A model generated the notes under the pieces. It searched no databases and was not told where the DNA came from. It saw only the letters and a list, made by a program, of their open reading frames with translations. Both the position numbers and the translations under genes were made by a program. 64,000 nt of DNA from Eledone cirrhosa. Lineage: Eukaryota. Positions 13,294-63,490 of this stretch are shown in pieces. The stretch is taken from assembly GCA_964016885.1 (NCBI GenBank), contig OZ024742.1, positions 152,024,001 to 152,088,000 on the forward strand, in the 5' to 3' direction. The stretch's first letter is position 1. The number at the start of each line of letters is the position of its first letter.

Positions 13294-13492
13294 TAGGAAC
13301 AAGTGTGACCCCGACGGCAGAGCTCAAGCCGTTTCGACGGCTATTTCTGGACTCAGTCCAGAAATAGCCGTCGGAACGGCTTTCGCCCTGCCGTCGGGGT
13401 TATACTTGTTCCTATTACCCACTCTACTACCCTAAGTATTGAGTACTTTGATGCGTTATGGTCCATCAGATTCCTTACCACAATGCCTTCGC
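13294..13492. mobile_element. Fold-back pseudo-LTR fragment, family U (pLTR of the PLE at 46547-50118)
   Basis: Arms turn at TTCTGGACT/c/AGTCCAGAA (~13345-13363). Contains the 3' half of the family-U HHR. Same family at 35031-35218 and 45169-45385. Confidence 0.8.
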
Positions 13493-13511
13493 TATATATA
13501 TATATATATAT

Positions 13512-14321
13512 TAAATGTATATATTGATTGAGTTAGGAACTCAAAATAGTTTCTTACAACAAAATAGCTCTAAGAAAGAAATATTTCTGAGCCGTATATT
13601 ATAATAGAATATAAAAGACAAACGAACACATATATAGATATATGTGTTCAAATCGTAAGGGACCTGATTCGCTAAGGGGAAAAGAATACTAACTATAGAC
13701 AATTGGGTTCGCTTGTCTCAATTTAAGAAAAAATTAAGAAAATAAATGCGAACCGGAATTGTCGTAACTACCATTCACCCAGGCAACTTGTTCTTGTTTC
13801 GCAAAGTTAATTGGGAATAGAAATACTAATCCGAGCTCATCAGTGGGTGATGAATTAGTATCCTAGACACATCTATGTATGCTATATAAAATATAAAACA
13901 GTGCACATGGCATCCTAGCGAGTCTCACAAACCCACACCACTAAAAATAGCAGCCAGGTTTACTCGACATTTGAAATAGGTCAACACATTAACGGAGCCG
14001 AATATATTAAATGTATATATTGAGTTAGGAACTGAAAATAGTCTCTTACAATAAAATAACTCTAAGAAAGAGATATTTCTGAGCCGTATATTATAATAGA
14101 ATATAAAAGTAAAACGAACACACATATATAGATATATGTGTTCAAATTGTAAGGGACCTGATCCGCTAAGGTGAAAAGCATACTAACAATAGACAATTGG
14201 GTTTGCTTATCTTAATTTAAAAAAAATGAGAAAATAGATACAAACCGGAATTGTGGTAACTACCAATCAAACAGACAACTTGTTGTTTCGCGAAGTTAAT
14301 TGTGCATAGAAATACTAATCC
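13512..14321 (-). mobile_element. Head-to-tail ~496-bp non-coding monomer (1.6 copies) with HHR, family I (retrozyme-like)
   Basis: 13512-14007 is repeated from 14008. HHR at 13775-13850 (-): TCACCCA-CTGATGA-GC...GC-GAAA-CAA..TTG-CC-TGGGTGA (the second copy has TC at the cleavage site). Related to 63580-64000. Confidence 0.7.
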
Positions 14322-15784
14322 AATTGTGGTAGTTACATATATATATATATATATTATGTATGTATATGTATATATATATATATATATATATATATATATA
14401 TATATATATATATATATATATATATATACGGAATCCTACAGTGAAGTCTCATTATTTATTTATATCTATATTTATTAATGTCATATTTATTTTCCTTTAA
14501 GTAAAAATAAAATGATGTAAGGCTCTTTACTGAAAGATATGAAATATAAGGAAGCAGTGAGAATTGATTATTTAGATTTTTTTCCAATTCAGGAGTCTAG
14601 AAGAGAAACCATTTCCTATGATTATTTGATATAATGTAGCAAAACGATGCTATTAATATTTATTTTAATCGAAATAACGCGATTGTTATGTTTCACAATC
14701 TCTCTCTCTCTCTCTCTCTGTCTGTATATATATATATATATATATATATATATATATACATGTTTATATATATATATACATGTATATATATATATATTAT
14801 ATATATATACATGTATATATATATATATATATATATATATATATATATATATATATATATATACATGTATATTTATATATATATACATGTATATATATAT
14901 ATATATATATATATACATGTATATATATATATACATGTATATATATATATATATATATATATATACATGTATATATATATATACATGTATATATATATAT
15001 ATATATATACATGTATATATATATATATATATATATATATATACATGTATATATATATATATATATATATACATGTATATTTATATATATATATACATGT
15101 ATATATATATATATATATATATATACATATATATATATTTATATATATATATATATACATATATATATACATATACATGTATATATATATATATATATAT
15201 ATATACATGTATATATATATGTATATATATATATATATATATATATGTATATATATATATATATATACATGTATATATATATATATATACATATATATAT
15301 ATATATATATATATACATGTATATATACATATATATATATACATGTATATATGTACTACAATAAAACTCACCTCCTACATATATATATATATATATATAT
15401 ACACATGTATATATATATATGTATATATATACATGTATATATATATATATATATATATATATATATATATATATATACATATATATATATATATATATAT
15501 ATATATATATATATATATATATATATATATATATATATATACATGTATATATATATCTATCTATCTAAGGCGGGTAAAATTCCCGAGATCCATGGACGAG
15601 TTCTCTCCAGCGGTCTCTGTCCCTCATTATCGCTGCCACGTCCTGCATCTCCAACAGAGCGGTGTCTGTCCTTAGGGCATCAACATACGTTAACCTTGGT
15701 CTTCCTCTTCTAGTGTGTCCATGTATATATATATATATATATATATGTATATATATATATATATATATATATATATATATATAT

Positions 15785-59588: not shown

Positions 59589-62129
59589 ATGTTGAGCAAG
59601 CAGGAACTCAGGGTGTCACTTAAGTCCATACTTATCCCGGACAGGAAGACATACCTCAAACCCCTAATACAGAGTGTCAACTCTTTCATCCGAAGAATAC
59701 GATGGAAAGCCTTCCACTTTGACCGTGCGGGTGCTGCTTACGCCGGAAGTACAGCAAACAGATATGGATTTACCATCTGCAAGAACCCCCCACACAACAT
59801 CCTGCTGGACCGTTTTGAGAAAGATCTATTTAACTTCGTCAGGAGCATTAAATTCAAAAAGCATTATAAACAGAAGAATAATTTCCACATAAAATTAGCA
59901 ACAACTATAAAAAAATTTAAAGATCGCCACCTCTTACATGTTATGTCTGACAAAACCAAAAATCTATACACCATGACTCCTGAAACTTACAACTCTTTCC
60001 TTCTTAAGGAACTTAATAAAAACTACAAAAAAAAACTATACGCTCCAGTGTAAACTTACTTGACAGAAAAGCCCAGGCTTTGGTTAAGGACTTGCATCTG
60101 GATAGATTTACCGACCCTTATGTACCAACAACCCAAAGGTTTTCTGTCAAGGATCATAAGCGAAACTTTATAGAGAACCCATCTATTAGACTTATAAGCC
60201 CAACCACATCCGACTTGAGTCGTATCAGTAAGAACATACTTGATAGGATCATCCCTTGGCTACGAGATGATATCACCAACAAGTTGTGGTCCAACTCCGG
60301 CCAAGTCATTATATGGTTCTCCGATCTAAGGTCCAAAGAATCTATGAGGTTCATCCAATTTGACATTGACAGCAATTACGCTTCAATAACCCGGAACTGC
60401 TCAACAAAGCATTAACCCTAGCCAGCACCAACTCTGACATAACCAATAATGAGATTGACATCATACTTATGGCTAGGCAGACATCATTGAATTCAACGGA
60501 ACACTCTGGACTAGAAAGGACAGAGGAGACAACTTTAACATCACGATGGGCTAAAGTGACTCTGCGCAAATCACCGATTTAGTTGGAATTTACCTATTAC
60601 ATAACATCAGAGCCGAAATTCAACCCTTGCAAGGCGGAATATACAGGGACGACGCCCTATTTGCAGTCCACAATTGCACTAATCGAGGCATTGACTTGCT
60701 CAAAAAACAATTACATAGATTCTTTAAAAATAACGGTCTCTCTATCACCATCGAGCCGAACCATAAAGTAGTAAACTTCCTAGAAGTTACTCTGGATCTT
60801 AACAATAACCTATATTACCCTTACCATAAACCAGGTGAAATACTTACATATATTAGCCCACACTCTAACCATCCATCGGCAGTCATCAGAGCAGTAATCA
60901 AATCTATCTTGTATAGGATCTCCATGCTATCAGAAAATGAGGAGATATTTATAAACCATGCGGCATATTATAATAAGGCTCTTTCTGAATCTGGTTATGA
61001 ACAGTCCAGTTACTACATACCTAAATGCCATAACACAGCAATTCACCACAACCATCATAAACTTAACACTAGAACTAGAAATACCTTAGCATATAGCAAA
61101 ATTCGCCGGAACTTTAGCACCTATGCAGGGAACCTTAATGATGGCAGTGGCCTGCTTCCCACTCTAAGTAGCAAACTAAAAATCAAAACTAGAATTGGAA
61201 TGAGCAATGGGATGACAAATAACAAATGCCCAAGTAATAATAACCCTATGAAGGCCCCCTACTAACACCACTAGAACCCCTAGAAGGAATAGGCCTAGAA
61301 ATCTAGAAATGTCACCTGGCTTAACCCCCCCATTCTCATCTAATCTAGCCACTAATATCCCTAAACGCTTCTTCTCTATCCTATCTAAACATTTCCCCCC
61401 ACAACCATAGATATTACAAACTCTTTAATAAAAATAACATTAAAATCTCATTCTCCACAACACCTAACCTAGCTAGCAATATCGCATTCAGTAACCATCA
61501 TAAACTAAGACAGTATAACTCCCACACCGCGGTACCACCCCCCATCAAATACACCACGCCACTACACCAATACTTACTCTAGTAGCACACCTCCCCCATC
61601 TAATCATTCTAGCACTGACCAACCGCTTAGGTTAAACAACCCTACTCTCACTAACCGCAGAAGTAACTGCAACTGCCGTTACCCTAATGCATGCCCACTA
61701 AATGTACATTGCCTGAAACCCAACATAGTCTATAGGTGCACGGTTAAAACTGCTTCGCATACCAGCTCCTATATCGGGTCTACCTCTAACCCTTTTAAGG
61801 TACGCTATAACGCGCACTCTTTTTCCATTCGATACCCTAACAACAGATGTTCGACATCTCTAACTAGGCTCATTAAAAAGCTTAAATTAACCAACATTTA
61901 ACACTCACTAACATGGGATATCATGGCTAGGGCCCAACCGTTCAATGGACGAAGAAAATCTTGTAACATCTGTCTTACCGAAGCATATTACATAACTCTT
62001 TCACGACCTCTACCGATTAACGATAGAACGGAGGTAACTATTAGCTGTCAACATCGAAGGGCTAATTCCTTCGCCAAAAGAATATTTGACCCAACAAAGT
62101 CACCTAGCCCCATTTTTACTTGTAGCTAA
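59589..62129 (+). pseudogene. PLE RT plus GIY-YIG, frameshifted
   Basis: SLKSILIPDRKTY, MSDKTKNLY, FIQFDIDSNYASI, GGIYRDDALF, VNFLEVTLDL, CNC..CPL, YIGST, CNICLTE, CQH. Confidence 0.9.
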
Positions 62130-63269
62130 TAAGTTAAATAGCTATAACTAACTTAGATAATTATAAGTTACCTCCCTTACATTGTCTCTCAATTAAAAAA
62201 ATTAAAAAATTAGCACTTAACTATAAACTACCCACAATTTCTAATCTCTCGAGGAGTTACTTCCCCTGAAACCACCCTCTAATTAGTAAGGTAAATATGT
62301 CCAATGGAGGCCATCTTGTTACCCATAGGCAGATCTCACACAATGCAGCCTCGACAGAAGAATACTGCTCGACTATGGCAGACAATTGATATACCCAGGA
62401 CACGAGAGTGAAATACGAATATATGGAACATTACATTTATGTAACATTCTCCCCTTATATTAATTTATATTCCTTTTGAAGTTCCGATGAGCTGCTCTAT
62501 CTTTACCTATGTTAATTATTTTCAACTGAACCACATCAATAATGATATATAATCATTTGATCCAGAAATATTATAAACGGACATTATTATTATTATTAAT
62601 ATTATTATTATTATTTTCTACATTCCTTACATCAAACTAAAATATATTGACAATCTTTTAATAATGACATCCTTGTGAAATTTATGCTCTTGTTTTGCTT
62701 AAATAATCAATACATACATATATATATATGGAAAGTTATATTTAAAATTGTTGGGTTACAACTAGTAAATATTTATAACTGATATAAAAGCACTCGACAA
62801 ATATTTGGAGTATATTTACAATATTAAATAAATGGAACCTATATTTATAAAACCATATTTATTTCATTATATATATTTCGGGGATATCATATTAACAAAT
62901 ATATATATATATATATATATATATATATATATATATATATATATATATATGTGTGTGTGTGTGTGTGTGTGTGTGTGTGTGTGTGTGTGTGTGTGTGTGT
63001 GTGTATGCATACCTATATATATATATATTTTCATATATGTAAATATATATATATATATATAGGTAAGCACATACACACATATATATATATATATATATAT
63101 ATATATGTTTATATATATGTATATATATGCATATACATATATATATATATATATATATATATATATATATATATATATATATATATATATATATATATAT
63201 ATATATATACATATATATATACATATATATAAACACACACACACACACATATATATATATATATATATA

Positions 63270-63490
63270 TAGTAATAATAATAAATTTGAAGACTAAAAT
63301 CCAAAGAGGGCTGGATAAGGATAAATATATATCAAATATATAAGAACCGTAGAGCAAATATTTATTAAAATAACAGATTTAAGTTTAAGCAAATAATCGC
63401 TGCTTTCACCCTTAACGGGTTTCAGAAGATCCCGTTAAGGGTGAAAGCAGCGACTCTTTGCTTAAACTTTAATCTGTTATTTTAATAAAT
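63270..63490. mobile_element. Fold-back pLTR, family B, with HHR at 63419-63467 (+)
   Basis: GTTT-CAGAAGA-TCCC gttaa GGGT-GAAA-GCA..TGC-TT-AAAC. The left arm mirrors stems II and III and turns at the ribozyme's 5' end. Confidence 0.8.

What the first reader, a model, noticed from the sequence alone, without database searches (positions are those of the whole stretch)
13294..63490. Fold-back elements turn at the ribozyme's own hairpins
Seen: three separate family-U fold-backs (turns at ~13354, ~35170, ~45316) reverse at nearly the same place, inside loop II of the HHR seen whole at 50010-50103. Family B turns at stem II (~3900) or at the HHR 5' end (~63419). Family N turns in stem II (~45083). 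Families F (~35468) and Q (~16520) turn immediately 5' of stem I. Known: PLE insertions often have inverted 5' pLTRs. Inference: RT stalls or the cDNA snaps back at HHR structure, so the ribozyme defines the inversion breakpoint and generates MITE-like palindromes without any transposase.
Basis: partly seen in the sequence, partly recalled or inferred. Interest (0 to 1): 0.78.

Follow-up and report, generated by a model that had tools for sequence, protein, structure and literature searches.

The report
Penelope fold-backs turn at transcription start
Thousands of tiny mirror-image copies of Penelope-type jumping genes in this animal genome turn at one family-specific base and often carry an extra, untemplated letter there, which likely marks the capped start of the element's RNA rather than a hairpin of its ribozyme, and suggests that both ends of the cut DNA each copy the RNA right up to its cap.

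Summary
The fold-backs are real and sit where stated, but the ribozyme does not set the turn. In tail-anchored genomic samples, arms pile up at one base per family: U at the 3' edge of loop II (53 of 60 long arms that reach that 13-base stretch end in it), F and B at the 5' edge of stem I, Q about 115 nt upstream of the ribozyme. N shows no peak. Each peak is the A of an initiator-like TTA/TCA. In 44 of 50 U and 45 of 50 B junctions where both arms reach that base, an untemplated C follows it, on both arms in 14 and 16: the known signature of a reverse transcriptase running off a cap. No U copy keeps loop II as snap-back would, and 13 of 66 short arms reach further than their partner. Best reading: two cDNAs, primed at two sites in the 5' leader from both ends of a (TA)n break, run off the capped 5' end and are joined head to head. 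The scan noted twin priming and an RNA-start idea before on other DNA of this genome; the cap signature did not turn up in my look-ups. No RNA data.

The parts
13296..13492 (.). Family U fold-back: short arm 13296-13353, untemplated C at 13354, long arm from the predicted +1 A (13355) through the half ribozyme and tail
   Evidence: template base after position 136 is A in 32 of 33 read-through arms of this sequence type
35033..35215 (.). Family U fold-back: long arm to 35168, centre CAG (35169-35171; extra C on both arms), short arm from +1 A 35172 with an internal rearrangement
   Evidence: the same centre in 12 of 50 U and 14 of 50 B junctions
45172..45384 (.). Family U fold-back, arms to position 139 plus a mirrored A-rich insert, centre 45316
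46551..46693 (-). Inverted, tail-bearing pLTR of the long U element, with an internal deletion across the ribozyme
46719..48857 (+). Broken RT-EN reading frame of family U (HSDKTG, YRDD, CxCx5C linker, GIY-YIG-like MIY..YIG; stops and frameshifts after 48350)
   Evidence: no Pfam hit for the RT part at E 0.01
50010..50103 (+). Type-I hammerhead of family U in the direct pLTR, sense to the ORF; core GAAA mutated to AAAA at 50077
50057..50062 (+). Initiator-like TTAGTC inside loop II; A at 50059 is the predicted transcription start (reference position 136)
   Evidence: mode of short-arm ends, 13 of 66; extra C after it; start itself inferred
3767..3954 (.). Family B fold-back joined through a CCC overlap in stem II (minority type)
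63272..63487 (.). Family B fold-back; the short arm starts at the 5' edge of stem I, next to the initiator-like TTAGTT
40945..40995 (+). Complete family B hammerhead-like motif (CAGAAGA core variant) starting at the predicted +1
   Evidence: weak as a monomer, z 0.59
35250..35822 (.). Family F fold-back; both arms end at the predicted +1 (35462 and 35474) around an 11-nt templated insert; hammerhead with a 116-nt stem II on the right arm; tail to 35822
   Evidence: (z -6.05)
16422..16690 (.). Family Q fold-back; the short arm spans the whole hammerhead (16517-16463, minus strand), joint near 16524 (minority type; the family peak is 115 nt further upstream)
44882..45137 (.). Family N fold-back, centre 45083.5 in the stem II loop (minority type)

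Best explanation
These fold-backs are likely pairs of cDNAs of the element's capped 5' leader: they turn at a family-specific initiator-like base, the predicted transcription start, and not at a ribozyme hairpin. Shown: both outer ends lie in (TA)n at two fixed template sites (U: 75 nt apart); these sites lie 60 and 135 nt downstream of the turn and upstream of the ORF; arms pile up at one base per family; an untemplated C follows that base. Inferred: the pLTR promoter starts a capped sense RNA there; a Penelope RT-endonuclease dimer cuts both strands of (TA)n and primes one cDNA from each end, mostly on the same RNA; both run off the cap, adding C and often a further A; the two 3' ends are then joined by template jumping or by end joining with microhomology and templated inserts. 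The ribozyme is near the turn only because promoter and ribozyme share the pLTR.
For: U long-arm loss per base 0.068 in positions 128-140 against 0.004-0.009 in tail, stem I, stem III and stem II; 0 of 7 end in 141-181. F: 15 of 34 long and 15 of 17 short arms that reach 335-341 end there. Q: 17 of 31 and 12 of 20 at 319-326. B: 6 of 27 and 10 of 25 at 156-163. Peak bases read TTA+1GTC or TCA+1GTA (U), TTA+1GTT (B), TCA+1TTA (F), TCA+1TAT (Q). Junctions with both arms at +1 and 1-3 bases between: U 417 loci, 44 of the first 50 with C after +1, 14 on both arms; B 136 loci, 45 of the first 50, 16 on both. The template base there is A (U 32 of 33 read-through arms; B read-through arms). Position control in U: inserts start with C in 8 of 9 arms ending at 136 against 16 of 50 at other positions 130-140, p 0.002. 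An extra G from the cap is reported at full-length L1 5' junctions (PMC11702581, passage). Two syntheses: the short arm lacks the tail, yet reaches more than 10 nt beyond the long arm in 13 of 66 pairs. Same source RNA mostly: arms agree at polymorphic sites in 44, 46 and 45 of 47 pairs; L070 and L120 have arms of different subtypes. L117 shows start, tail and ORF in one sense run, and a jump at position 135 onto a second template. The anole element cuts and extends both strands, starts at two internal sites and does not need ribozyme cleavage in vitro (PMC11167929, parts 1-2 of 4). D. virilis Penelope has a TATA-less initiator promoter in the pLTR (PMC2377424, passages).
Against: No RNA was seen: the start site and cap are inferred from DNA. 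U ends spread over 128-140 rather than one base, and a predicted hairpin 3' strand covers 132-140 in some subtypes. In F the template base after +1 is G, so the 30 single C/G inserts of 50 are ambiguous; only 7 of 14 longer inserts start with C, 3 on both arms. In Q only 7 of 100 arms show C, about three quarters read through, and my pattern excluded the commonest perfect fold-back. N has no peak in the 700 nt scored. Equal arm ends are somewhat more common than chance (9 of 40 against 4.6, p 0.03) and a few centres mirror untemplated bases (L001, L003, L046), which fold-back synthesis also explains. One F end at +1 is a later SINE insertion (L195). Samples are the first matches on contig C1 of an exact tail motif, so they favour young copies.
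Confidence: 0.75

Rival explanations
1. RT stalls at RNA structure (ribozyme stems or the small hairpin in loop II) on a longer template, adds C by terminal transferase, and the two stalled cDNAs are joined.
For: In U the peak overlaps the 3' strand of a predicted loop II hairpin (pairing 0.96-0.97 at 132-134 in one subtype); F and B peaks sit at the 5' edge of stem I.
Against: That hairpin is weak and varies by subtype (-0.7 to -5.0 kcal/mol) while an -8.0 hairpin is passed. The subtype with the weakest hairpin turns at the same base with the same C (L046, L118). Stem I's 5' strand should already be freed when RT reaches it (inference). Q's peak is outside the ribozyme and F's 116-nt stem II takes only 6 of 41 long arms.
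Confidence: 0.11
2. The template has a discrete but uncapped, processed 5' end (an exonuclease stop at a folded or protein-bound element, or another cut), and RT adds C at any template end.
For: Explains the sharp upstream edge (0 of 7 ends in 141-181) and the F and B ends at the ribozyme's 5' boundary; DNA alone cannot prove a cap.
Against: All four peak bases are an A in a TTA/TCA initiator-like context, and C is specific to that base. The ribozyme cut site itself (95|96 in U) is no hotspot: 3 of 77 ends in 92-97.
Confidence: 0.08
3. One reading: one cDNA (or an antisense RNA) folds on a ribozyme hairpin and copies itself.
For: Self-priming on an antisense template was proposed for palindromic inverted junctions in rotifer Penelope (PMC3846280, passages). 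A few junctions use stems as overlap (L049, L102, L224, L227, window 3900 and 45083). Arms are mostly concordant and equal ends are mildly enriched.
Against: No U copy of 91 keeps loop II; most centres have 0-3 bases, too tight for a priming hairpin; each arm often holds sequence the other lacks (tail; 13 of 66); two pairs have arms of different subtypes; the outer ends are two different fixed sites.
Confidence: 0.04
4. A few master palindromes spread as non-autonomous MITE-like units, so clustering reflects shared descent.
For: Some junction types recur (for example 10 of 100 arms share one).
Against: Junctions are very diverse; the same CAG centre occurs in unrelated families U, B and F and in different U subtypes; one-armed copies and copies with long partners stop at the same base (L033, L091, L117, L202, L230).
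Confidence: 0.02

Closest known systems
EN+ Penelope-like elements with inverted 5'-truncated pLTR and one-sided tail (PMC8557442, passages and section 11; PMC3846280, passages)
   Same: Head-to-head inverted copy, tail on one side, hammerhead in the pLTR, (TA)n targets, TATA/Inr-like motifs noted in pLTRs.
   Different: Those passages leave the origin open or propose self-priming on an antisense template; here the inversion point is a fixed base with a cap-like extra C, often on both arms, which points to a capped sense template and two cDNAs.
Poseidon element of the anole in vitro (PMC11167929, parts 1-2 of 4 read)
   Same: Both strands cut and extended, two internal RT start sites that define the tail, ribozyme cleavage dispensable.
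   Different: In the parts read it does not address where cDNAs end or how arms are joined; tails here are 75-135 nt, not 30-40.
L1 twin priming and the cap-derived extra G of full-length L1 insertions (PMC11702581, passages)
   Same: A second RT primes from the other DNA end; microhomology or inserts at the inner joint; extra G marks a capped 5' end. 22 of 72 B long arms end in 80-99, around the short arm's start at 86, as in twin priming.
   Different: In L1 the two segments abut with little overlap; here both arms copy the same stretch up to the cap, giving a palindrome.
MITEs
   Same: Short, numerous, hairpin-forming, TA-flanked (general knowledge).
   Different: Unequal arms, variable centres, RNA-derived; no terminal inverted repeat pair for a transposase.

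Membership tests
EN+ Penelope-like elements | Single ORF with RT and C-terminal GIY-YIG endonuclease | tested here: met
   RT motifs and MIY..YIG in broken frames at 46719-48857; by motif inspection, Pfam gave no hit for the RT part
EN+ Penelope-like elements | Direct or inverted pLTR with one-sided tail | tested here: met
   46551-46693 inverted with tail, 50010-50112 direct without; short arm ends at position 76-78 in most of 66 pairs
Hydra clade of PLEs (PMC8557442 section 11) | DKT motif, RWK motif, CxCx5C linker | tested here: met
   HSDKTG and CNCPDGSIC; RWR in L117, RRR in the window copy, RWK in the ORF at 59526
Hydra clade of PLEs (PMC8557442 section 11) | Placement in the clade by RT phylogeny; absence of the CCHH motif | not tested
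   No tree or reference alignment was run
Hydra clade of PLEs (PMC8557442 section 11) | Insertion into (TA)n | tested here: met
   Nearly all sampled tails border (TA)n
Type-I hammerhead ribozyme | CUGANGA (or U3-A8 variant) and GAAA core, NUH site, three stems | tested here: met
   U read-through copies carry UUGAGAA, UUGAUAA or CUGAGAA with GAAA and GUC (U3-A8 is a described variant, PMC4209133 passage); Q canonical; F, B, N by inspection. The 50010 copy fails at GAAA
Type-I hammerhead ribozyme | Self-cleavage | not testable with these tools
   No assay; Rfam listed no hammerhead among 150 of 488 rows
   0 of 91 U copies keep loop II; Q 2 clear cases among the first 24 inspected; N stem II takes 4 of 41 long arms
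Capped Pol II start in the pLTR | Extra C opposite the cap at the run-off base | tested here: met
   U 44 of 50, B 45 of 50; F and Q inconclusive
Capped Pol II start in the pLTR | Capped RNA 5' ends observed at that base | not testable with these tools
   Needs CAGE or 5' RACE
MITE | Equal terminal inverted repeats and uniform length | tested here: not met
   Arms end at two different template sites and centres vary

The most novel reading that the evidence does not exclude
Penelope-like elements insert by symmetric double reverse transcription: a dimer copies one capped sense RNA twice, from both ends of the break, to the cap, and the joined cDNAs fossilise the transcription start at single-base resolution. 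A jump at the cap onto a second RNA builds the tandem pLTR. Families place the start inside the ribozyme (U) or at its first base (B, F), so the promoter position would decide whether the element's own mRNA can self-cleave.
Probability: 0.45. Interest if true: 0.8.

Novelty: new variant of a known kind. Interest (0 to 1): 0.62.

Why it matters
How Penelope-like elements make their inverted and tandem ends is stated as unresolved in the papers read (PMC8557442, PMC2377424), and self-priming on an antisense template was left as an open proposal (PMC3846280). A cap-type extra base on both arms argues for a capped sense template copied twice. It yields base-exact start-site predictions that CAGE or 5' RACE can test at once, and an in vitro test with the existing purified-protein system. 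It also explains tens of thousands of short palindromes in this genome (24,666 exact tail matches for U alone) as copies of a 5' leader, not as DNA transposons.

Tried and rejected
1) A C-for-G difference between U arms at the ribozyme cleavage triplet looked systematic in the first 30 loci. It came from my query, which carries that change, and vanished in the tail-anchored sample; those 30 loci were left out of the breakpoint counts (they are included in the control). 2) A DNA search with the tail alone returned nothing because common words are skipped; exact patterns were used instead. 3) No RNA holder listed. 4) Rfam listed no hammerhead among the rows shown, and my strict motif scan found Q but not U, B, F or N. 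5) My first duplicate filter dropped sequence-identical young copies (F 26, Q 24, B 48); it was redone on larger samples (51, 51, 72). For U, 91 of 93 copies were scored. 6) A CCAAT box 50-90 nt upstream of the turn is seen in U, F and Q but is missing from one U subtype, from B and from N, so it is not used as evidence. 7) Literature: searches listed no paper whose title or abstract start links Penelope inversion points to the start site or cap; subscription papers and supplements were not seen, so absence from print is not established. The bioRxiv retrozyme preprint (part 1 of 5) and PMC13282606 (passages) added nothing on breakpoints.
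Full report
Observation. The window is rich in (TA)n and in short inverted repeats. Self-BLAST of the masked window places fold-back centres at 13354, 45316, 35468, 45083.5, 3905.5, 63425 and 16499.5, and the 35170 turn reads directly. The reference ribozyme at 50010-50103 is a type-I hammerhead in sense to a broken RT-endonuclease frame at 46719-48857, but its core GAAA is mutated. The frame has the DKT and CxCx5C motifs given for the Hydra clade (PMC8557442 section 11); no tree was built. 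Contigs of an independent public run carry the same class of joints, which speaks against a read chimera.

Sampling. To avoid choosing copies by their turn I anchored on an exact motif in each family's tail and took the first matches along contig C1 of the 3.0-Gb genome G000: U 24,666 matches, 91 of 93 fetched copies scored; B 11,430, 72 copies; F 6,944, 51; Q 2,184, 51; N 2,037, 51. Arm ends were mapped on read-through copies, to within a few bases. An earlier similarity search was biased by its query and is not in these counts.

Anatomy. Each copy has its two outer ends in (TA)n and its 5' ends joined in the middle. The outer ends are two fixed template sites: a tail end and an internal site (U: positions 1 and 76-78). 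L117 shows the sense order: turn point, half ribozyme, internal site, tail end, about 90 nt, then the ATG. So both priming sites lie in the 5' leader, 60 and 135 nt downstream of the turn.

Where arms end. In U, loss per base is 0.004-0.009 through the tail, stem I, the cut site, stem III and stem II, then 0.068 in 128-140, where 53 of 60 long arms end; none of the 7 survivors ends in 141-181. Short arms: 49 of 66 in 128-142, mode 136. F: 15 of 34 long and 15 of 17 short arms end at the 5' edge of stem I (one long end is a later SINE insertion), while the 116-nt stem II takes 6 of 41. Q: 17 of 31 and 12 of 20 end about 115 nt upstream of the ribozyme, against 4 of 48 and 4 of 32 inside it. B: 6 of 27 and 10 of 25 at the 5' edge of stem I, with 22 of 72 long arms ending around the short arm's start. 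N: no peak; stem II takes 4 of 41. Clustering is real, but it follows no common ribozyme feature.

Against snap-back. A snap-back on stem II would retain the 31-nt loop II; no U copy does. The short arm lacks the tail, so the long arm is not its copy; the short arm reaches more than 10 nt further than the long arm in 13 of 66 pairs, so it is not the long arm's copy either (one or two of these may be later deletions). Arms agree at polymorphic sites in 44, 46 and 45 of 47 pairs, so they mostly share a source, but L070 and L120 pair arms of different subtypes. Junctions that do use a stem as overlap are few (L049, L102, L224, L227 and two window copies). In favour of some fold-back synthesis, equal ends are mildly enriched (9 of 40 against 4.6, p 0.03) and a few centres mirror untemplated bases.

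What the peak is. Each peak base is an A in TTA or TCA followed by GT, TT or TA, an initiator-like context (consensus recalled; an initiator and internal promoter are documented for D. virilis Penelope, PMC2377424 passages). I then counted junctions in which both arms reach that base with 1-3 bases between. U: 417 loci; of the first 50, 27 have a single C/G, 12 CAG, 2 CG, 3 other C-led, 6 none; 44 carry C after the base and 14 on both arms. B: 136 loci; 45 of the first 50, 16 on both arms. The template gives A there (U 32 of 33; B). In U the C is specific to position 136: 8 of 9 against 16 of 50 at neighbouring positions, p 0.002. An extra G in the sense strand is the described mark of cap copying at full-length L1 junctions (PMC11702581 passage). 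F is ambiguous because its template base is G (30 single C/G of 50; 7 of 14 longer inserts C-led). Q is weak (7 of 100 arms, with the main fold-back class excluded by my pattern).

Mechanism. Inferred: the pLTR promoter starts a capped sense RNA at this base. A dimeric RT-endonuclease cuts both strands of (TA)n and primes one cDNA from each end at the two leader sites, as the anole element does in vitro without needing ribozyme cleavage (PMC11167929 parts 1-2). When priming uses the 5'-proximal copy of the sites, both cDNAs reach the cap after a short run, add C and often A, and are joined directly or through microhomology and templated inserts. When a longer template is used, an arm reads through and a long insertion with an inverted pLTR results, as at 46551-50112. 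In L117 a cDNA jumps at position 135 onto a second template and makes a tandem; this is one case. A stall at the weak loop II hairpin cannot be excluded by position alone, but a stronger hairpin is passed and the weakest-hairpin subtype turns at the same base.

Prior work and novelty. Inverted pLTRs and tails are known (PMC8557442); palindromic junctions were read as self-priming on an antisense template (PMC3846280). My searches listed nothing linking the inversion point to the cap, but the library lacks most subscription papers and I saw no supplements. Earlier notes of this scan on the same genome already proposed twin priming and an RNA start inside the ribozyme (seen after I had noted the idea); they are not independent support. 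A look-up for the cap signature returned nothing. Verdict: observation confirmed, ribozyme-directed turning not supported, replaced by a testable start-site model; a new variant of a known kind, interest 0.62.

Noticed in passing
L195, L125, L248: The same SINE (also in the window at 26597-26781, 36257-36454, 45635-45822) has inserted with target duplications into F, B and N copies; in L195 exactly at the predicted F start.
   Followed up: partly
window 4444-4785 and 23466-23835; L126: Another hammerhead-bearing fold-back family; the 23650 copy and L126 turn at an AGTT about 45 nt upstream of the ribozyme, consistent with the start-site rule, while the 4614 copy turns a little inside.
   Followed up: partly
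L117 (1301 nt shown): Tandem U unit in which the ORF is joined to a second unit beginning at position 135: a possible snapshot of pLTR formation by template jumping at the cap.
   Followed up: partly
U read-through loci L038-L103: Core varies between UUGAGAA or UUGAUAA (U3-A8), CUGAGAA (C3-A8 mismatch) and CUGAGGA; a TATTTAAA in stem II lies about 29 nt upstream of the predicted start in some subtypes, so promoter and ribozyme may overlap base for base.
   Followed up: partly
window 51695-55052: A different Penelope-like element (GIY-YIG Pfam hit, E 2.7e-07) flanked by 474-bp inverted repeats at 98.5% identity.
   Followed up: no
window 59248-62575: A further broken Hydra-type frame (RWK, DKT motifs) between inverted repeats.
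   Followed up: no
window 5951-7483: 5'-to-3' fragment of a non-LTR RT on the minus strand (RVT_1, E 2e-31) inside (TA)n arrays.
   Followed up: no
B family, reference 362-368 and 502-508: A 140-nt tandem repeat upstream of the B ribozyme carries further TTAGTC motifs at which several arms also end (L123, L142, L150, L166, L311): possible secondary starts.
   Followed up: partly
U, F and Q references: A GACCAAT-type CCAAT box lies 50-90 nt upstream of the turn in three families, in either orientation, but is missing from one U subtype and from B and N.
   Followed up: partly
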